Positions 1,274 through 47,781 of a stretch of 64,000 nucleotides of DNA are shown here, in pieces. Where the stretch lies: sequence record MT129652.1; one strand, given 5' to 3'. Source of the stretch: Escherichia phage MN01. Position 1 is the stretch's first letter; each line of letters begins with the position of its first letter. The notes below the pieces were generated by a model. It had not been told where the DNA came from and made no database searches. It worked only from the letters and a program-made list of their open reading frames with translations. Position numbers and translations under genes: made by a program.

Positions 1274-1504
1274 ATGTGGTATTATGCCCCAATGGCTGAT
1301 GAGCCTGTAAAAATTAGCCGTGCTAAGTTTACAAAGATTTACGGTCTCGTTTATAAAAAGTCTGATTACGGTGTGCGTTTTGAAGATGCACACTGTATCA
1401 ACGACCCTTATAATGAAGACCTCTATGGCAAATTGGTTCCTATCGTTAAGGGGTCCGCCTCTGAGATGATAGATGAATCTAATATATCTGCTGCTGAAAT
1501 TTAA
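1274..1504 (+). CDS. hypothetical protein (76 aa)
   Basis: ATG 1274 behind SD GAGGA; the track's TTG 1250 start lies in the leader. Confidence 0.55.
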   Translation: MWYYAPMADEPVKISRAKFTKIYGLVYKKSDYGVRFEDAHCINDPYNEDLYGKLVPIVKGSASEMIDESNISAAEI

Positions 1505-1523
1505 GTTATCTGAGGAAAATATT

Positions 1524-2483
1524 ATGATGTTAGTTATTGGTTCTCGTGCATTACATAACGCTGGCCTGATTGAAAGTCAGAAAATTGAAAACTCTGATTG
1601 GGACTTCATCGCTGACCAAGGTTCCTGGAACCACTTTAAAGCACGTATGTTCGGTGCTCATGTTCCTGTGGATAACCCTGATGTCCAAGCTTTTAAATGT
1701 ATGTACAATGGCAAAGAAACTTATTTTGAAGCTTATATTGTCCGTGCCCTGACCAACGTACGAGAAATTACTGGTGAGCTTCAAGACGAAGATTTCACCT
1801 CAAGTTATCGTCTCTTGAAATACGCTGAAAATCATATTAAGAAAGACCGTCTTACAGGTTTCTATTGGGCAACTCCTGATATTTGTCTGGCAATTAAACT
1901 GTCTCATCGTTACCTGAAGAACAATCCATTCTTCCTGAAGACCATGAGCCATATTAATTACCTTCGTAATAAGGGTGTTGTTCTTAATGATGAACTGCAG
2001 AAAATCATGCTGCAACGGCAGGCAGAAACACTGTCATACAGCCACCCTAAACTAGACGTGGGCAAGAAAACTTTCTTTAATGATACAATCTATACCCTTG
2101 ACCATGACTCCATCCACGAGGCCGTGGCGCTTGCTGATAAGCCTGCATATAAGTTCTATATGAAGGATGATTCAGAAGTCATGACCTCGCGTGAAAAATT
2201 TGAAGCACTCCCTGATGTTATTAAACTGGCAGGTGTTTATGAAGAAGCATGTGTACTTGCTCTGGAGCGTTCGCAGGTTCCCAATGAGTTTAATATCTCT
2301 CCATCCGTGAGCTTCCATATTGCTCTGGAAAAAGTCTGCACCTCCATTACTTCTGGATGGTTCCGTGAGTATGCCTGGGAACATTACCAGGAAGTGGTTA
2401 ATATGTACAACACCCTGGGTCGCGAAGACTATGTTAAACGTTTCAAGGCTAACCAACATTTAATTCGTCCTTTCACAAAATAA
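1524..2483 (+). CDS. hypothetical protein, possible nucleotidyltransferase-fold N-terminus
   Basis: ATG 1524 behind SD GAGGA; N-terminus VIGSRAL..x17..DWDFI loosely fits the GS...DxD NTase pattern. Confidence 0.6.
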   Translation: MMLVIGSRALHNAGLIESQKIENSDWDFIADQGSWNHFKARMFGAHVPVDNPDVQAFKCMYNGKETYFEAYIVRALTNVREITGELQDEDFTSSYRLLKYAENHIKKDRLTGFYWATPDICLAIKLSHRYLKNNPFFLKTMSHINYLRNKGVVLNDELQKIMLQRQAETLSYSHPKLDVGKKTFFNDTIYTLDHDSIHEAVALADKPAYKFYMKDDSEVMTSREKFEALPDVIKLAGVYEEACVLALERSQVPNEFNISPSVSFHIALEKVCTSITSGWFREYAWEHYQEVVNMYNTLGREDYVKRFKANQHLIRPFTK

Positions 2484-2542: not shown

Positions 2543-3229
2543 ATGAACGGTCCAAAAACTTTTAATTCTCAAGCTCATGCAGTAGGCAGTTTCGCTGGTA
2601 AAATTTCTAATGATAAAATCAAAAACGAAACTATGTTCTTTAACAGCTCATTGGCTTTCGCTTTTGACAATGGTGGCCCTATTACTCGTAGCTTTATCAT
2701 GAGTCTGCCGGATGATTGGAACACTGACCAGGTTGTATTTGATTCTCGGGTTCATATGCTTATGCCTGGTTGGTATCCTGCTATCCCAGGTTATCACCAT
2801 GATGATGTACCACGCCCGGATATTCCGGTTGGTCAACACTTTATTACTGCAGGGCAACCTGATTATGATAATCCTCGTTACCATTCTGAACATATTCTTG
2901 GTCTTGTTAACGCTGATGTGTGTCCTACTTATTTTGCAACCGGAACTGCGCAATTTAGTCAGATTCCTGAAGGCGAACTTATCTATCGCCAGTGGCATAA
3001 AGAAGTTCTGGAAAAAATTGAGTCCAATGAATTAACCAAGTGGGATGCTCCTGACCGCACGTTGCTCCAGTTTGATTGGCAGACATGGCATACAGGTTCT
3101 CGCGCAGTAAGTAATGGTTGGCGCTGGTTTGGTCGTGTGTCTCGTAATACTGACCGTGTTAAAAAGATTACAAATGAAATCCGCGTCAATGCTCAAGTAT
3201 ATCTGGAATTCCCTATGGAGGGCTGGTAA
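2543..3229 (+). CDS. hypothetical protein, possible cupin/2OG-Fe(II)-oxygenase-like
   Basis: SD GAGGA; GYHHDD ... WHTGSRAVSNGWRWFGR resembles HxD...H...R; weak. Confidence 0.6.
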   Translation: MNGPKTFNSQAHAVGSFAGKISNDKIKNETMFFNSSLAFAFDNGGPITRSFIMSLPDDWNTDQVVFDSRVHMLMPGWYPAIPGYHHDDVPRPDIPVGQHFITAGQPDYDNPRYHSEHILGLVNADVCPTYFATGTAQFSQIPEGELIYRQWHKEVLEKIESNELTKWDAPDRTLLQFDWQTWHTGSRAVSNGWRWFGRVSRNTDRVKKITNEIRVNAQVYLEFPMEGW

Positions 3230-26944: not shown

Positions 26945-27161
26945 TATTACCGATTTTTTAGATAAAATCGAGGAAGACTTTACTGCGCTCCCATATTTCA
27001 TTAAACTTTATCTGCGAGACATAAAAGGTCTTCCAATTGATATCGACCCTTTAAACGTCCGGAATCTGGAATTTACTTCACCGGATAATAACGTTGATTA
27101 CCGTTATCATGTGGATAATGCTAATCTATATTTTACAATTGAGTTAACTCCCAAGGATTAA
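26928..27161 (+). CDS. hypothetical protein (77 aa)
   Basis: ATG 26928 overlaps the gene 55 3' end. Confidence 0.5.
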
Positions 27162-27162
27162 T

Positions 27163-27474
27163 ATGCAAGCTCCAGATATTTCTCAACTGACCGATAAGCA
27201 GATTGAAGAAGCACAGGAACGTCTCGAAGAAGCGAACGCGCTCGAAGCACAGAGTCAAGCAGCAAAGATTCTGAAAAAGAATGCTCGTGAAATTGCACGA
27301 CTGAATAAGCATGCTCAAGGGGCAGTGCTGGAAAACAATTTTGAAGCATACAAATACGCTTTAGCTAAACTGCGTGGGATTTACCGCCAACCCGTTACGG
27401 AAGACCTGATTAAGTTGATGTGGGATTCTACTCGCAAACAAATTTGGGAAATCGTAAATGGCATTAGTAAATAA
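27163..27474 (+). CDS. hypothetical helical protein (103 aa)
   Basis: SD AAGGA. Confidence 0.55.
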   Translation: MQAPDISQLTDKQIEEAQERLEEANALEAQSQAAKILKKNAREIARLNKHAQGAVLENNFEAYKYALAKLRGIYRQPVTEDLIKLMWDSTRKQIWEIVNGISK

Positions 27475-27658
27475 ACCCTTTAAACGGCTTCTTATTGGAG
27501 CCGCTTTCAGACTTCGCTCATATGGTAATATCTGTATCAAGCAGACTGAAACCGAATATAAAATGGTTGGGCAGTATTCCGATGAAATTTTTCGGATTGA
27601 ACCTGTGGCCAAGGTTTGGGTGGATTCACATCAACTTAAGAAGTGGTGGCAACGATGA
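27458..27658 (+). CDS. hypothetical basic protein (66 aa)
   Basis: Overlaps the upstream 3' end. Confidence 0.45.
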   Translation: MALVNKPFKRLLIGAAFRLRSYGNICIKQTETEYKMVGQYSDEIFRIEPVAKVWVDSHQLKKWWQR

Positions 27659-27676
27659 TAACGTGGACAGGTGGCT

Positions 27677-27771
27677 AATGAAAGACGAACATCCGGATTT
27701 TTAAGCTTATGAATGACGAATACGAAAAAGTTTAAGAGGTCATATGAATGACGAATTCGACGGATTTTGAT
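27677..27771 (+). repeat. three degenerate ~31-35-nt tandem repeats, each opening an 8-codon mini-ORF
   Basis: ATGAAAGACGAACAT.., ATGAATGACGAATAC.., ATGAATGACGAATTC.. at 27678, 27709, 27744. Confidence 0.8.
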
Positions 27772-27921
27772 AAGATTAAATCTGACAAAAATGAGATGAT
27801 ACTTCAATTTGAAGCCGCTCGCATTAAAGCAGAAAATGAAGGTACTATTACCTATAAGCCTATCAAGTTCAGGTCTTCTCATGAACCTCTGTATGGTGTA
27901 TTAATTGGAAAGGAAGCCTAG
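27748..27921 (+). CDS. hypothetical protein (57 aa)
   Basis: ATG 27748, 8 nt after SD AAGAGG; starts inside repeat 3; followed by a terminator. Confidence 0.45.
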   Translation: MTNSTDFDKIKSDKNEMILQFEAARIKAENEGTITYKPIKFRSSHEPLYGVLIGKEA

Positions 27922-27935
27922 TGCTTCCTTTTTTG
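27909..27935 (+). terminator. rho-independent terminator
   Basis: AAAGGAAGC-CTAGT-GCTTCCTTT plus T-run. Confidence 0.75.
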
Positions 27936-27958
27936 CTTTATATTCGGGATGATAAAAT
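27934..27958 (+). promoter_or_regulatory. MotA-box middle promoter TGCTTTA-N12-TAAAAT (genes 47/46)
   Basis: Box begins in the terminator T-run. Confidence 0.5.
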
Positions 27959-27978
27959 GAACCAACTGAGGAGATTAT

Positions 27979-28122
27979 ATGGAATTATTTTTAGGATATG
28001 TTGTGTTATTCATGGCATTCTACACATTCACACGAGCTTGTTGGATAGGATTCTTTTCTACTCCTGACGGGTTCATTTCAATAATTTTATTTTGCACTGC
28101 GATAACGGCGCTTGGCTTATGA
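27979..28122 (+). CDS. 47-aa 2-TM micro-protein
   Basis: SD GAGGAG; ATGA junction with gene 47. Confidence 0.45.
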   Translation: MELFLGYVVLFMAFYTFTRACWIGFFSTPDGFISIILFCTAITALGL

Positions 28123-38454: not shown

Positions 38455-38594
38455 AGATAATTACAATTATTGTACTGACTGCATTTTTTAGTATGTCAAT
38501 CTATTGGGCAATAATGACTCCGCATATGATTCCAACTTTAATTTTGGGTTGGGTATTTTTGGGACTCCAAGCTCGCTATGAATGTTTTAATTGA
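38451..38594 (+). CDS. 47-aa 2-TM micro-protein
   Basis: ATGA overlap with imm. Confidence 0.4.
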   Translation: MKIITIIVLTAFFSMSIYWAIMTPHMIPTLILGWVFLGLQARYECFN

Positions 38595-38604
38595 GGAAAA
38601 TACA

Positions 38605-39108
38605 ATGAAAAAGTTAGCTATCGCAGCTGTTATGCTGCTATCTGGTTGTGCTTACCAGGGTGATGTTGTTAATGCCAACGAGATTGGTAAAGCGCGAATT
38701 GCTGCAGACCGTCAGGTGCATAATGGTTCCTTTGATTTCAAAGGTGGTACTGGACTTATCTACAAACGCGACAACAATCAATGTGGAAATAACTGCGCGA
38801 AATATGCTCAACGTGAAGTTGAATATCAGCGTGAACAAGCCGCGAAGCATGATGAAGTAATCGCTAAATTGGAAGCAGAAACCAAGCGACAAAATGACCT
38901 GGATACTGTTAACCAGATTTCACAGGTCTGCATGTCATATATCAATATGCAGATAAACATCATGCGTGCAGAAGCTTATCAGGCAGCGGAGACGGGTTCT
39001 CCAAAAGCCAATGAGTATCGCGATATGTATCAGCGTTCTGCTCAAAACCGTCTGAGCTATATTAATAAATGTGTAGCTAAAGAGAAAGCACGCCAAGGTA
39101 TTAACTGA
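38605..39108 (+). CDS. lipoprotein (167 aa)
   Basis: ATG 38605 behind SD GAGGA; lipobox LLSGC. Confidence 0.65.
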   Translation: MKKLAIAAVMLLSGCAYQGDVVNANEIGKARIAADRQVHNGSFDFKGGTGLIYKRDNNQCGNNCAKYAQREVEYQREQAAKHDEVIAKLEAETKRQNDLDTVNQISQVCMSYINMQINIMRAEAYQAAETGSPKANEYRDMYQRSAQNRLSYINKCVAKEKARQGIN

Positions 39109-39215
39109 TGCTATTATTACTTCTGATTGTTGGAACAGTAATTGGTTTGCTGCTATTAGAAAAGCGTAATAAGCATTTGGCTGAAGAAAACTGGAAACGT
39201 GGAAACGTTTACTAA
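39108..39215 (+). CDS. 35-aa single-TM micro-protein
   Basis: TGATG coupling; MLLLLLIVGTVIGLLLL. Confidence 0.4.
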   Translation: MLLLLLIVGTVIGLLLLEKRNKHLAEENWKRGNVY

Positions 39216-39242
39216 ATTACTCTGAACTGCGAGAAAAATATT

Positions 39243-39371
39243 ATGATTGGTACGCTATTGATTAGTCTGTGGCTGTTGTCTGCATTTGGTATTGGTTTTA
39301 TGTACTGGTGGGACAAACGTCAGACCCGGAAGATTGTTGAACGTGCAATTAATCGTGGATTCAATCGTTAA
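39243..39371 (+). CDS. 42-aa single-TM micro-protein
   Basis: MIGTLLISLWLLSAFGIGFMYWW then a basic tail. Confidence 0.4.
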   Translation: MIGTLLISLWLLSAFGIGFMYWWDKRQTRKIVERAINRGFNR

Positions 39372-39372
39372 T

Positions 39373-39397
39373 TGCTCTAAAAATACAGTGATATAAT
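39373..39397 (+). promoter_or_regulatory. MotA-box middle promoter TGCTCTA-N12-TATAAT (uvsX)
   Basis: Read directly. Confidence 0.55.
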
Positions 39398-39450
39398 TAT
39401 CCTATCTTAAACCTGTGAGAAAAATATAATGGTGCCTATGGAAAAAATGA

Positions 39451-45190: not shown

Positions 45191-46219
45191 ATGTCATATA
45201 TTGATAAAGAATTTGCAGTCAGAGCTTTATCGTATCAACCACGTTATAGAGAAGTCACCGGGAGCACATTTAAGGCAAACTGTCGTTGCAAGGTTTGCGG
45301 TGACTCTCAGAAAGATTCACACAAGGCCCGATTCTGGGCGTATACCAATCCGGCTGACGGTGCGGTTTACGTGAAATGTTTTAACTGTGACTACTCCACG
45401 CATATAAGCAAATACATAAAAGAGTTTGAGCCTGATTTACATCGGGAATATATGGTTGAGAAGTATAAGGAGAATGCCTTTGGCAGACAACGTAATGAAG
45501 TTGCAGAAACTCCGAAAGAACCAGAAAAAACTCCGGTTATTGAGCAACTTGCTTTTTGCGAAAGAATCGATACTTTACCAGAAGCGCATCCGATAGTTAA
45601 GTATGTAAAAAGTCGGTGTATTCCGAGCAATGTTTGGAACCGGTTATGGTTTACAAACAAATGGCCTGCATTAGTTAACTCCGTTAATCCTGGGACGTAT
45701 AAGAATGAAACGAATGAACCACGCTTGGTTATTCCTATCTTCAACGGCAAAAAAGAAATCGAATCTTTCCAAGGACGAGCTCTTCGCAAAGATGCACCAC
45801 AAAAATATATCACAATCAAAGCCCACCCAGAAGCTTCCAAAGTCTATGGTGTAGACAAGATTGACGAACGCAAGCGCGTGTGGGTAATGGAAGGTCCGAT
45901 TGATAGTTTGTTTATCCCTAACAGCATTGCGATAACCGGTGGAACATTAGCATTGGAAGCCGTTCCTTATGCAGAAACCCGAGTATGGGTAATGGACAAC
46001 GAGCCAAGACATCCTGATACGATTAAACGTATGAAGAAACTTGTTGAAGCCGGTGAAGCCGTTATGTTCTGGGACAATGCACCATGGCATACGAAAGACA
46101 TAAATGAGATGGTTAAATCAGAGGGTGCAACCCCTGAACAAATCGAATCATATATGGCCGATAACGTTACTCAAGGGCTGCTGGCGAGAATGCGACTTTC
46201 GAAGTACGCAAAAGTTTAG
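45191..46219 (+). CDS. 61: DNA primase gp61
   Basis: 342 aa; zinc motif CRCKVCGDS..H..; Toprim region; collinear with T4 gp61. Confidence 0.95.
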   Translation: MSYIDKEFAVRALSYQPRYREVTGSTFKANCRCKVCGDSQKDSHKARFWAYTNPADGAVYVKCFNCDYSTHISKYIKEFEPDLHREYMVEKYKENAFGRQRNEVAETPKEPEKTPVIEQLAFCERIDTLPEAHPIVKYVKSRCIPSNVWNRLWFTNKWPALVNSVNPGTYKNETNEPRLVIPIFNGKKEIESFQGRALRKDAPQKYITIKAHPEASKVYGVDKIDERKRVWVMEGPIDSLFIPNSIAITGGTLALEAVPYAETRVWVMDNEPRHPDTIKRMKKLVEAGEAVMFWDNAPWHTKDINEMVKSEGATPEQIESYMADNVTQGLLARMRLSKYAKV

Positions 46220-46424: not shown

Positions 46425-46622
46425 CTATACAAGGCCGATTAATGCCAGTGAAACATCTACAACCGATTCGAGCGCGACGACTGGTAATATAATACCATAT
46501 GTCAATGCAACAGGAGCAACAATGAAGTTCCAGAGTAGAACTGAACAGAGCACCGAAAGGACCAGAATCGTTCGCTTACGACTGCCTTTGATGGCTTGAA
46601 TTAGACTAGATAGTTTTAGCAT
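46425..46622 (-). CDS. small 2-TM membrane protein, paralog A
   Basis: ATG at 46622 behind a strong SD AAGGAGG; LLWNFIVAPVALTYGIILPVV. Confidence 0.65.
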   Translation of the reverse strand: MLKLSSLIQAIKGSRKRTILVLSVLCSVLLWNFIVAPVALTYGIILPVVALESVVDVSLALIGLV

Positions 46623-46638
46623 ATATCCTCCTTTCTTG

Positions 46639-46646
46639 TATTTATG
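46639..46646 (-). promoter_or_regulatory. near-consensus late promoter CATAAATA (minus strand)
   Basis: Reverse complement of TATTTATG; 17 nt upstream of the minus-strand ATG. Confidence 0.4.
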
Positions 46647-46668
46647 CTTCAAACCAATACGATATAAT
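46645..46668 (+). promoter_or_regulatory. MotA-box middle promoter TGCTTCA-N11-TATAAT (gene 56)
   Basis: Read directly. Confidence 0.5.
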
Positions 46669-46706
46669 TAACATACAAATAACATGAATTGATAAGGAAA
46701 AATATA

Positions 46707-47225
46707 ATGGCTCATTTTAACGAGTGTTCTCAACTGATTGCGGGTGTTGATAAAGCTGAAGAAGCTTATGACAATGCAATTATCGAAGGTACTGACCCGC
46801 TGCAGATTATGCTTGATATGCAGAAATCTTTGCAGGTCCGGTTGGCTACTGAAAAACCAGAATATAACTCACATCCAGATGAATTGGCTACTGCAGGTGA
46901 TGTTGTTACCTGGCTCCGCAACCAGAAAGATTATATTGATGATGAATTCCGCGAACTGATTACTGCATTAGGTGGCATGTCCAATGGCGAGAAAGCTGCC
47001 TCGGCCGTATGGAAACCATGGAAAGCACAACATGGTGAAATGCAGCAAACCCTGATTAACGATTTGTCTCCTGAAGACCAGCTCGAAATTAAATTCGAAA
47101 TGATTGATATCCTGCACTTTGTTCTGAACATGTTCCATGGTCTTGGTCTATCTGCAGAAGAAATCTTTAAACTGTATTACCTGAAAAACGCTGAGAACTT
47201 TGCTCGTCAGGACCGAGGTTATTAA
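46707..47225 (+). CDS. 56: dCTPase/dUTPase gp56
   Basis: MAHFNEC..DPLQIMLDMQ..ETAGDVV..IDDEFRELI..EIFKLYYLKNAENFARQDRGY matches T4 gp56. Confidence 0.95.
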   Translation: MAHFNECSQLIAGVDKAEEAYDNAIIEGTDPLQIMLDMQKSLQVRLATEKPEYNSHPDELATAGDVVTWLRNQKDYIDDEFRELITALGGMSNGEKAASAVWKPWKAQHGEMQQTLINDLSPEDQLEIKFEMIDILHFVLNMFHGLGLSAEEIFKLYYLKNAENFARQDRGY

Positions 47226-47506
47226 TGGCTCGTTTAAATAAACGTCAGCTTAAGAAAGCTCGTAAGAAGCATATTAATGATATAATTGAAAACGCTAATG
47301 TTGAAATCTTTGTAGAACTTTTAGCCAATCAACTAAAAAATTTATCTAAACAAGAAATTGCTATGAATACTGAAAATGCTAAAAATGTAATCGAAACTCA
47401 TAATGTTTTTGCCCAAGCTACTGCTGAATACATTGCTAATCCTACTGCTGAAAATCTAGCTAAAATGACCGAAGCCAATAAAGCAGTCCAAGCCGCCAAA
47501 TTGTAA
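47225..47506 (+). CDS. hypothetical helical protein (93 aa)
   Basis: TAATG coupling. Confidence 0.55.
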   Translation: MARLNKRQLKKARKKHINDIIENANVEIFVELLANQLKNLSKQEIAMNTENAKNVIETHNVFAQATAEYIANPTAENLAKMTEANKAVQAAKL

Positions 47507-47547: not shown

Positions 47548-47781
47548 ATGGGTGGTTTCGTTAATATCAAAACCTTTACGCATGCAGCTGGTGAAGGTAA
47601 AGAAGTTAAAGGTACTGAGGTTTCAGTTCCATTTGAAATCTATTCTGATGCGCATCGTATTGCTAATGCTCATTATCAGACTTTCCCTTCGGCCGTTGCA
47701 GCCTATTCTACTGTAGTGACTGATGCTGCTGACTGGAAGACCAAGAATGAGGCAATGTTTACGCCGACCGATATTGTTTAA
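47548..47781 (+). CDS. soc: small outer capsid protein Soc
   Basis: GFVNIKTF..VPFEIYSD.H.I..AHYQTFPS..AAYSTV matches T4 Soc. Confidence 0.9.
   Translation: MGGFVNIKTFTHAAGEGKEVKGTEVSVPFEIYSDAHRIANAHYQTFPSAVAAYSTVVTDAADWKTKNEAMFTPTDIV

What the first reader, a model, noticed from the sequence alone, without database searches (positions are those of the whole stretch)
46707..47225. gp56 dCTPase retained although hydroxymethylase and glucosyltransferase slots are empty
Gene 56 is well conserved relative to T4. Genes 42, beta-gt and alpha-gt are missing from their syntenic positions in this window. If the phage uses unmodified cytosine, a dCTP-destroying enzyme would be counter-productive. The enzyme may therefore have shifted specificity (for example dUTPase only), or the modification genes are elsewhere or of a different type.
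Basis: inference. Interest (0 to 1): 0.4.

Follow-up and report, generated by a model that had tools for sequence, protein, structure and literature searches.

The report
dCTPase kept for a 5-methylcytosine genome
This T4-like phage keeps an enzyme that destroys the normal cytosine building block although it lacks T4's cytosine-modifying genes, most likely because its relatives' 'thymidylate synthase' carries the one amino-acid change known to make that enzyme methylate cytosine nucleotides, so the DNA would contain 5-methylcytosine instead of cytosine.

Summary
Window 46707-47225(+) encodes a full-length gp56 dCTPase/dUTPase, 67% identical to T4's. Genes 42, beta-gt and alpha-gt are absent from their slots, from the whole window, and from the complete genome of the relative VR20. 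The window is a Gaprivervirus.

Two papers (2021, 2025) already describe this paradox as unsolved. A third shows that VR7 virion DNA has modified, unglycosylated cytosines, so the "unmodified cytosine" premise is unlikely.

gp56 shows no sign of changed specificity. It differs at 1 of 85 positions conserved in other T-even gp56 proteins.

The likely missing piece lies outside the window. Every Gaprivervirus "td" has Asp at the position of E. coli ThyA Asn177. All 116 other T-even td clusters have Asn. Leu143, Asp169 and the other catalytic residues are unchanged. N177D is the documented dUMP-to-dCMP switch, giving 5-methyl-dCMP.

Acinetobacter phages 133 and ZZ1 are reported with the same gene deficit and also carry Asp.

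Best reading: gp56 feeds dCMP to a converted td, giving 5-methylcytosine DNA as in phage Xp12. This is inferred, not demonstrated.

The parts
46707..47225 (+). Gene 56: dCTPase/dUTPase (all-alpha NTP pyrophosphohydrolase), 172 aa
   Evidence: 67% identity to T4 gp56 over its full length. Pfam dUTPase_2 and PRA-PH both score above their cut-offs. PHROG 173, nucleoside triphosphate pyrophosphohydrolase. 84 of 85 family-conserved positions are kept. The AF2 model (pLDDT 87, six helices) has DCTPP1 and MazG-like DR2231 as its best PDB fold matches, though these are weak.
46645..46668 (+). MotA-box-like middle promoter (TGCTT, 13 nt, TATAAT) upstream of gene 56. An AAGGA ribosome-binding site lies at 46695-46699.
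   Evidence: Read directly from the sequence. Assigning it as a middle promoter is an inference from the T4 consensus; it was not tested.
38455..39450 (+). Empty gene 42 / beta-gt slot between imm and uvsX. It holds only one 176-aa ORF (38578-39108), a predicted lipoprotein.
   Evidence: ORF list. The N-terminus KLAIAAVMLLSGC matches the lipoprotein signal of T4 imm.1. PHROG 1754, no Pfam enzyme domain. No gp42 or beta-gt hit.
26945..28091 (+). Empty alpha-gt slot between gene 55 and gene 47. Only small ORFs of 103 aa or less.
   Evidence: ORF list. The VR20 annotation of the equivalent interval lists a-gt.5, a-gt.4, a-gt.3, a-gt.2 and 47.1 only. No alpha-gt hit.
45191..46219 (+). Gene 61 primase, the upstream synteny anchor
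   Evidence: 59% identity to T4 gp61.
47548..47781 (+). soc, the downstream synteny anchor
   Evidence: Pfam Soc, E 1.9e-20.
46425..46652 (-). 75-aa reverse-strand ORF occupying the position where T4 has dam
   Evidence: PHROG 2024, unknown function. No T4 Dam homologue in the window or in VR20.

Best explanation
Gene 56 here is an ordinary, functionally conserved T4-type dCTPase/dUTPase. It is retained because this phage lineage (Gaprivervirus) still keeps unmodified cytosine out of its own DNA.

Proposed pathway:
1. gp56 hydrolyses dCTP/dCDP (and dUTP/dUDP) to the monophosphates.
2. T4 gene 42 is absent. The phage's single thymidylate-synthase homologue ('td', outside this window, next to frd) carries Asp in place of Asn177. 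It methylates dCMP to 5-methyl-dCMP using methylene-tetrahydrofolate.
3. The gene 1 dNMP kinase and host NDP kinase make 5-methyl-dCTP, and the phage polymerase incorporates it.
4. Virion DNA then has 5-methylcytosine in place of cytosine and carries no sugar. That makes the glucosyltransferases unnecessary.
5. Alc, DenA and DenB can still attack host cytosine DNA.
6. dTMP would come from deamination of 5-methyl-dC nucleotides by Cd, from host ThyA, and from host DNA breakdown.

Shown here: the presence and conservation of gp56; the absence of 42, alpha-gt and beta-gt; and N177D in td of all relatives examined, with the rest of the active site unchanged.
Shown by others: VR7 DNA has modified, unglycosylated cytosines, and N177D switches thymidylate synthase to dCMP.
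Inferred: that the product is 5mC, that gp56 spares 5-methyl-dCTP, and the route to dTMP.
For: (1) gp56 is full length. It is 67% identical to T4 gp56, within the range of the replication proteins of this window (gp43 60%, gp41 65%, gp61 59%, uvsX 79%). It keeps 84 of 85 family-conserved positions.

(2) No gp42, beta-gt or alpha-gt in the window or in the complete VR20 genome. VR20 has exactly one TS homologue.

(3) VR20 is annotated with alc, denA, denB, cd, td, frd, gene 1 and ndd. Two papers state that the genus has dCTPase, DenA, DenB and Alc but no hmC synthase, and they postulate an unknown base (PMC8056088; PMC12115623).

(4) Experiment: VR7 DNA 'has modified cytosines' and is unglycosylated. 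The panel included EcoRII, SalI and Csp6I, with and without T4 beta-glucosyltransferase (PMC6326788).

(5) The 120 closest td clusters were aligned together with VR20 td and E. coli ThyA. Asp at the ThyA-177 position occurs only in the five Gaprivervirus sequences: VR20 itself and four clusters, namely the SP18 cluster (73 members), P0002, P0003 and vB_YenM_P8. All 116 other T-even td clusters have Asn.

(6) R21, E58, W80, Y94, R126, R127, L143, C146, H147, R166, S167, D169, H207 and Y209 are all unchanged.

(7) Named members with Asp include UPEC01 (a top match to this window), VR25, VR26, DK-13, P479, MN01 and CJ20. A contig of 170,988 bp, the length of TH54 (the best match to the window), also has Asp.

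(8) Published rules: N177D gives a preference for dCMP and yields 5mdCMP. A hydrophobic residue at 143 gives a methyl rather than a hydroxymethyl product. D169N marks 5-hydroxy-dCMP synthases (PMC8670742 sec. 11; PMC13326640).

(9) In bioRxiv 10.1101/2024.12.05.627091, five of seven Asp-177 TS homologues made 5mdC in vivo together with T4 gp1. That preprint also describes 5mC phages making dTTP by deamination, and finds PRA-PH-type pyrophosphatase genes co-localised with the deaminases.

(10) Gaprivervirus td is 63-70% identical to other T-even td proteins, which are 71-100% identical to each other (median 85%). By contrast gp56 and Cd are about 85% identical to their nearest outside relatives.

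(11) Second lineage: Acinetobacter phages 133 and ZZ1 are listed in PMC8056088 as lacking the synthase but having DenB, Alc and dCTPase. Both also have Asp at this position. The controls Acj9 and DLP3 have Asn.
Against: The td gene is not in this window, so for this particular phage the switch is inferred from relatives at 92-96% nucleotide identity.

No base-composition chemistry exists for any Gaprivervirus. The restriction data say 'modified', not '5mC', and I could read only the figure legend, not the gel.

I could not confirm that T4-type gp56 spares 5-methyl-dCTP, that DenB or DenA ignore 5mC DNA, or that T4-type Cd deaminates 5-methyl-dCMP. The Endo IV paper I checked has no 5-methyl-dC data.

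Cd shows no clade-specific change that would suggest co-adaptation.

Two of the seven Asp-177 enzymes in the cited screen gave no 5mdC.

Fully 5mC DNA should be a target of McrBC, McrA and Mrr. Yet VR7 was grown on BL21(DE3) and relative RZ on K-12 MG1655. That requires an unidentified anti-restriction function. The Mcr status of these strains is from my own knowledge.

That 133 and ZZ1 lack a second TS homologue rests on the paper's statement, not on my own search.
Confidence: 0.6

Rival explanations
1. The phage replaces cytosine with a still unknown base made by an unrecognised, non-thymidylate-synthase enzyme. This is what the 2021 and 2025 papers propose. gp56 again supplies dCMP and removes dCTP.
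For: PMC8056088 and PMC12115623 reach this conclusion from gene content. VR20 has many orphan ORFs, including a 22-gene block with no T4 counterpart. The VR7 restriction data do not name the base.
Against: None of the larger orphan proteins has an enzyme domain in Pfam. The two largest candidates are window 1473-2483 and 2543-3229. The second is widespread in phages with gene 42 and in phages of Aeromonas, Mycobacterium and Gordonia. The ORF in the 42/beta-gt slot is a lipoprotein. The N177D change in td explains the data without needing a new enzyme.
Confidence: 0.15
2. The Asp-177 td makes 5-hydroxymethyl-dCMP, or another C5 product, so the DNA carries bare hmC without sugars.
For: T4 gp42 also has Asp at the equivalent position (PMC13326640). 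VR7 DNA is modified and unglycosylated.
Against: Position 143 stays Leu, as in methyl-transferring enzymes. Hydroxymethylases have Asp or Glu there. Position 169 stays Asp, so the 5-hydroxy signature D169N is absent. The legend of the BREX supplement calls the T4 gt- control 'hydroxymethylated' but VR7 only 'modified', after a test with T4 beta-glucosyltransferase. frd is retained next to td, consistent with a reductive methyl transfer that produces dihydrofolate (this last point is inference).
Confidence: 0.08
3. The phage uses ordinary cytosine. gp56 serves only as a dUTPase and pool balancer, as in T4-related phages that keep gp56 and DenA without modifying cytosine (RB43 and RB49 types).
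For: PMC8056088 notes that RB43 and RB49 have dCTPase-dUTPase and DenA homologues yet carry out general transduction of canonical-base DNA. PMC12115623 Table 4 lists Krischvirus and Pseudotevenvirus with dCTPase but without the hmC synthase.
Against: VR7 DNA is experimentally modified at cytosines. Unlike those genera, Gaprivervirus also keeps denB and alc. gp56 is 85-86% identical to that of gene-42-carrying Dhakavirus phages and keeps all but one conserved position. td carries N177D.
Confidence: 0.07
4. gp56 has changed substrate specificity in this lineage, for example to dUTP only.
For: Nothing specific. 32% of residues differ from T4 gp56.
Against: That divergence equals the genome-wide level. 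Only one conservative change (D->E at residue 49) falls on the 85 positions conserved in other T-even gp56 proteins.
Confidence: 0.05

Closest known systems
Bacteriophage T4 gp56 dCTPase-dUTPase
   Same: Orthologue by sequence (67% identity over the full length), by position (between 61 and soc) and by conserved residues. Presumed to have the same role: removing dCTP and dUTP and supplying dCMP and dUMP.
   Different: In T4 the dCMP goes to gp42 hydroxymethylase and the DNA is then glucosylated. Here genes 42, alpha-gt, beta-gt and dam are all absent.
Xanthomonas phage Xp12-type 5-methylcytosine replacement (also PaMx74 and metagenomic relatives)
   Same: A single TS homologue with Asp at the Asn177 position makes 5-methyl-dCMP. 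A MazG/PRA-PH-type dCTP pyrophosphatase and a dCMP-deaminase-family enzyme accompany it. dT nucleotides can arise by deamination, so no separate thymidylate synthase is needed.
   Different: Unrelated phage lineage and host. Here the enzyme looks like the resident T-even td orthologue, in its usual frd-td-nrdA position, rather than a distinct gene. The deaminase is an unremarkable T4-type Cd. The phage also carries the T-even host-shutoff set (alc, denA, denB). 5mC has not been demonstrated chemically.
Dhakavirus, Mosigvirus and RB69-type T-even phages
   Same: Closest genera. gp56 is 78-87% identical and the early-gene synteny is the same.
   Different: They keep a second TS homologue in the gene 42 position, together with glycosyltransferases (hmC or 5-hydroxy-C plus sugars). 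Their td has Asn177.
Mammalian DCTPP1 (RS21-C6) and MazG-like DR2231
   Same: Best structural matches to the gp56 model. All are all-alpha NTP pyrophosphohydrolases acting on dCTP or dUTP.
   Different: Similarity is weak (E about 0.2, TM 0.4-0.6, 11-18% identity). From my own knowledge, DCTPP1 prefers 5-modified dCTP, the opposite of what the phage enzyme must do.

Membership tests
T4 gp56 dCTPase/dUTPase family (Pfam dUTPase_2 / PRA-PH, PHROG 173) | Full-length sequence homology to T4 gp56 | tested here: met
   67.4% identity over 172 columns, E 1.5e-77.
T4 gp56 dCTPase/dUTPase family (Pfam dUTPase_2 / PRA-PH, PHROG 173) | Profile match above the curated threshold | tested here: met
   dUTPase_2 scores 29.5 against 22.9, and PRA-PH scores 22.3 against 21.3. 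PHROG 173, E 2.7e-46.
T4 gp56 dCTPase/dUTPase family (Pfam dUTPase_2 / PRA-PH, PHROG 173) | Family-conserved residues retained, including the acidic DDEFRE and EIKFExxD motifs | tested here: met
   84 of 85 positions that are at least 95% conserved are retained. D79, E80, E83, E127, E131 and D134 are invariant in alignment A3. Their role as metal ligands is inferred from the MazG-like fold.
T4 gp56 dCTPase/dUTPase family (Pfam dUTPase_2 / PRA-PH, PHROG 173) | Hydrolyses dCTP and dUTP but not 5-substituted pyrimidine dNTPs | not testable with these tools
   Needs recombinant enzyme assays.
T-even glucosyl-hydroxymethylcytosine system | dCMP hydroxymethylase (gene 42) | tested here: not met
   No hit in the window or in the VR20 genome. 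PMC12115623 Table 4 lists the genus as hmC-negative.
T-even glucosyl-hydroxymethylcytosine system | DNA alpha- and beta-glucosyltransferases | tested here: not met
   No hits and the slots are empty. VR7 DNA is unglycosylated.
5-methylcytosine replacement system (Xp12 type) | TS homologue with Asp at the ThyA Asn177 position | tested here: met
   Met in all Gaprivervirus td sequences examined. The gene lies outside this window, so for this phage it is inferred from relatives.
5-methylcytosine replacement system (Xp12 type) | Methyl-type active site: hydrophobic residue at 143, Asp169 kept, Cys146 nucleophile | tested here: met
   L143, D169 and C146 are unchanged. The rules are taken from PMC13326640.
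5-methylcytosine replacement system (Xp12 type) | dCTP pyrophosphatase that removes dCTP | tested here: met
   gp56 in this window. Its activity was not assayed.
5-methylcytosine replacement system (Xp12 type) | dNMP kinase and cytosine-nucleotide deaminase | tested here: met
   Gene 1 and cd are annotated in VR20. Cd is an ordinary T4-type protein. T4 gp1 supported incorporation of 5mdC in the in vivo assay of the cited preprint.
5-methylcytosine replacement system (Xp12 type) | 5-methyl-dC replaces dC in virion DNA | not testable with these tools
   The only evidence is restriction analysis of VR7 showing 'modified cytosines', unglycosylated.

The most novel reading that the evidence does not exclude
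Gapriverviruses, including the phage in this window, and independently Acinetobacter phages 133 and ZZ1, are T4-type phages whose genomes carry 5-methylcytosine in place of cytosine. They would have reached this state by converting their resident thymidylate synthase through a single N177D change and then losing gene 42 and the glycosyltransferases. That leaves them with no dedicated dUMP-methylating enzyme, so dTMP would come from deamination of 5-methyl-dC nucleotides or from the host. They would also need a still unidentified way to evade McrBC, McrA and Mrr in E. coli.
Probability: 0.55. Interest if true: 0.7.

Novelty: new member of a known kind. Interest (0 to 1): 0.6.

Why it matters
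Two published comparative studies leave open how Gapriverviruses can carry dCTPase, Alc, DenA and DenB without a hydroxymethylase. They therefore withhold a recommendation on the therapeutic use of these phages.

A one-residue switch in td turns that puzzle into a direct test: one LC-MS run, or one co-expression assay. If it is confirmed:
- It adds 5mC genomes to the T-even repertoire.
- It shows how a phage can exchange one cytosine modification for another by retuning an existing enzyme.
- It predicts how these phages fare against defence systems. They would be sensitive to BREX, as observed for VR7, and exposed to type IV restriction systems.
- It offers an E. coli phage as a source of fully 5mC DNA.

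It also shows that annotation pipelines naming this protein 'thymidylate synthase' may be misleading.

Tried and rejected
- The ORF in the 42/beta-gt slot (38578-39108) as a replacement enzyme. Rejected: it has a lipoprotein signal like T4 imm.1 and no enzyme domain.
- The two largest non-T4 ORFs of the window as modification enzymes. 1473-2483 has only DUF7277 and DUF7275. 2543-3229 is PHROG 1843 and occurs in 472 phage records, including Dhakavirus, Mosigvirus, Aeromonas, Mycobacterium and Gordonia phages, so it does not track the loss of gene 42.
- A second, divergent TS homologue. None was found in VR20 or in the window by tblastn with td.
- Dam or another T4-type DNA methyltransferase. 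There is no Dam hit. I did not run an HMM screen of the whole proteome for C5-methyltransferases and rely on PMC8056088 for that.
- Ten further orphan proteins of VR20. No informative Pfam domain.
- Clade-specific changes in gp56 and Cd that might signal co-adaptation. gp56 has one conservative change and Cd has none.
- Reading the original VR7/VR20 papers (Kaliniene 2010, 2011) and Hardy & Nalivaika 1992. They are not held.
- Data on whether T4 Endo IV cuts 5-methyl-dC. None in PMC1635256.
- A sequence search of the PDB for gp56. Only a marginal hit to a dimeric dUTPase. The fold search gave weak but coherent hits to DCTPP1 and MazG-like proteins.

Full report
WHAT IS IN THE WINDOW

The window is the early-gene region of a T4-like phage, read in the direction rIIA <- ... 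<- e.2. A 6 kb stretch around the finding matches members of the genus Gaprivervirus at 92-96% nucleotide identity. The best matches are TH54, TH41, UPEC01 and VR20 (taxonomy).

An ORF runs 46689..47225(+), and its ATG at 46707 gives a 172-aa protein. That protein is 67.4% identical to T4 gp56 over its whole length (E 1.5e-77). It passes the Pfam thresholds for dUTPase_2 and PRA-PH and matches PHROG 173. It lies between gene 61 and soc, as in T4.

A TGCTT-N13-TATAAT element at 46645-46668 and an AAGGA site precede the gene. This resembles a T4 middle promoter. That reading is an inference.

An AlphaFold model (pLDDT 87, six helices) has mammalian DCTPP1 and the MazG-like dUTPase DR2231 as its best PDB matches. 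The scores are weak: E about 0.2, probability 0.9-0.99. The same top hit, 7mu5, is reported for the RB69 orthologue in PMC13326640.

THE MISSING GENES

T4 gp42, beta-gt and alpha-gt have no tblastn hit better than E 0.1 in the 64 kb.

The interval between imm and uvsX holds a single 176-aa ORF. Its N-terminus is a lipoprotein signal like that of T4 imm.1.

The interval between gene 55 and gene 47 holds only ORFs of 103 aa or less. These correspond to a-gt.2 to a-gt.5 and 47.1 of VR20.

T4 dam and segF are also absent.

I fetched the whole VR20 genome. It has no gp42, beta-gt or alpha-gt hit at E<=1.

THE PARADOX IS ALREADY IN THE LITERATURE

VR20 is annotated with alc, denA, denB, ndd, cd, td, frd and gene 1.

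PMC8056088 (2021) states that Gapriverviruses lack any known enzyme for non-canonical bases yet have DenA, DenB, Alc and dCTPase-dUTPase. It suggests an unknown protein.

The BREX study PMC6326788 analysed VR7 DNA with restriction enzymes, with and without T4 beta-glucosyltransferase. It concluded that VR7 has modified cytosines in unglycosylated DNA. The premise that the phage may use plain cytosine is therefore unlikely for this genus.

HAS gp56 CHANGED?

I aligned the window protein with 120 homologue clusters. The Gaprivervirus clade differs at only one of the 85 positions that are at least 95% conserved in the other 116 clusters. That one change is a conservative D->E at residue 49.

The protein is 85-86% identical to gp56 of Dhakavirus phages, which carry gene 42. 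Its 67-68% identity to T4 is typical of this window: gp43 60%, gp41 65%, gp61 59%, uvsX 79%.

Nothing in the sequence suggests a shift to 'dUTPase only'.

THE SEARCH FOR THE MISSING SYNTHASE

The slot ORF is a lipoprotein. The two largest non-T4 ORFs of the window are a DUF7277/DUF7275 protein and a PHROG 1843 protein. The second is widespread in phages with and without gene 42. Ten other VR20 orphan proteins have no informative Pfam domain.

The lead came from reading VR20 'td'. It has ...VDVFLGLPFDIGSY where E. coli ThyA has ...CDVFLGLPFNIASY. That puts Asp at the position of Asn177.

I retrieved the 120 closest td clusters and aligned them with VR20 td and ThyA.
- Asp occurs only in the five Gaprivervirus sequences: VR20 itself and four clusters (the SP18 cluster of 73 members, P0002, P0003 and vB_YenM_P8).
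- All 116 other T-even clusters have Asn, including T4-type, RB33, HY01 and Dhakavirus Bp7.
- R21, E58, W80, Y94, R126, R127, L143, C146, H147, R166, S167, D169, H207 and Y209 are unchanged.
- Named members with Asp include UPEC01, VR25, VR26, DK-13, P479, MN01 and CJ20. A 170,988-bp contig, the length of TH54, also has Asp.
- VR20 has only this one TS homologue.

WHAT THE SUBSTITUTION MEANS

According to PMC8670742 (sec. 11) and PMC13326640 (sec. 24, 28), which cite Hardy & Nalivaika 1992, Liu & Santi 1992 and Graves et al. 1992:
- A hydrophobic residue at position 143 goes with methyl products, and an acidic residue with hydroxymethyl products.
- D169N marks 5-hydroxy-dCMP synthases.

The Gaprivervirus enzyme has D177, L143 and D169. 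That is the methyl-dCMP signature.

In bioRxiv 10.1101/2024.12.05.627091:
- Five of seven Asp-177 homologues made 5mdC in vivo when co-expressed with T4 gp1.
- The authors describe 5mC phages such as Xp12 that make dTTP by deaminating 5-methyl-dC nucleotides, which bypasses the need for a second thymidylate synthase.
- PRA-PH-type pyrophosphatase genes co-localise with the deaminases of modified contigs.

All of these components are present in the Gaprivervirus gene set. The dCTPase is the gene in this window.

SUPPORTING PATTERNS

Gaprivervirus td is 63-70% identical to other T-even td proteins, while those are 71-100% identical to each other (median 85%). gp56 and Cd are about 85% identical to their nearest outside relatives. 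td therefore stands out in this lineage.

It still sits in the usual frd-td-nrdA position.

As a second, unrelated lineage I read td of Acinetobacter phages 133 and ZZ1. PMC8056088 lists both as lacking the synthase while having DenB, Alc and dCTPase. Both have Asp at this position. Acj9 has Asn, and so does DLP3, which has a separate dCMP-modifying TS homologue.

The same paper notes that Kashlev et al. 1993 found Alc to be inhibited by CpG methylation. That fits a 5mC genome being immune to its own Alc.

CAVEATS

- td lies outside the window.
- The base has not been identified chemically.
- I could read only the legend of the VR7 gel.
- I found no data on gp56 with 5-methyl-dCTP, on DenB or DenA with 5mC DNA, or on T4-type Cd with 5-methyl-dCMP. 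Cd shows no clade-specific change.
- A fully 5mC genome should be attacked by McrBC, McrA and Mrr, yet these phages grow on BL21(DE3) and MG1655. An anti-restriction function must then exist. The Mcr status of those strains is from my own knowledge.
- That T4 gp56 spares dTTP and hm-dCTP, and so probably any 5-substituted pyrimidine, is also from my own knowledge.

VERDICT

- The gene is an ordinary gp56 orthologue.
- The paradox is real but already published.
- The interpretation 'shifted specificity' is not supported.
- The alternative 'modification genes of a different type' is supported.
- The specific proposal is a converted td making 5-methyl-dCMP. I did not find it in the literature I could search.
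- I rate it about 0.6 likely.
- If true, it makes the genus a new member of the known class of 5mC-substituting phages.

Noticed in passing
window 46425-46652 (-): A 75-aa reverse-strand ORF (PHROG 2024, unknown function) occupies the place where T4 has dam. No Dam homologue exists in the window or in VR20.
   Followed up: partly
window 47225-47506 (+): A 93-aa ORF starts on the stop codon of gene 56, where T4 has the homing endonuclease segF. VR20 has no ORF here (180-bp gap). Its first 48 residues match PHROG 5782. In UPEC01 the region under the match carries an annotation 'molybdenum ABC transporter, periplasmic molybdenum-binding protein'; I did not establish that this label belongs to the equivalent ORF.
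   Followed up: no
window 38578-39108 (+): A 176-aa predicted lipoprotein (LSGC lipobox) has an N-terminus like T4 imm.1 but a different, longer C-terminal part. It is the only gene in the former 42/beta-gt slot.
   Followed up: partly
window 1473-2483 (+) and 2543-3229 (+): Two conserved proteins of unknown function. The first has DUF7277 plus DUF7275 and a G-S...D-W-D motif reminiscent of nucleotidyltransferases. The second (PHROG 1843) is 75-100% identical in T4-like phages of Escherichia, Klebsiella and Aeromonas, and about 30% identical in Mycobacterium, Gordonia and Bacillus phages.
   Followed up: partly
L005:10422-10655 (VR20, outside the window): VR20 has a 77-aa paralogue of the N-terminal part of Alc directly beside the full-length alc gene.
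   Followed up: no
proteins P0256 (183 aa), P0251 and P0252 (104 aa): In some Gaprivervirus contigs the Asp-177 td is called as two pieces split after residue 183. Phage-record matches to T4-type td also stop at residue 183, and from my own knowledge that is the T4 td intron site. This suggests an intron or insertion in some members.
   Followed up: no
L007 (phage 133 td) and L008 (phage ZZ1 td): Besides Asp at the 177 position, both Acinetobacter enzymes have Met where ThyA has Gln165, another residue within 6 A of C5. Gaprivervirus td keeps Gln there.
   Followed up: no
window 46645-46668 (+): A TGCTT-N13-TATAAT element upstream of gene 56 resembles a MotA-dependent middle promoter. In T4 the corresponding region is the replication origin oriA.
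   Followed up: no
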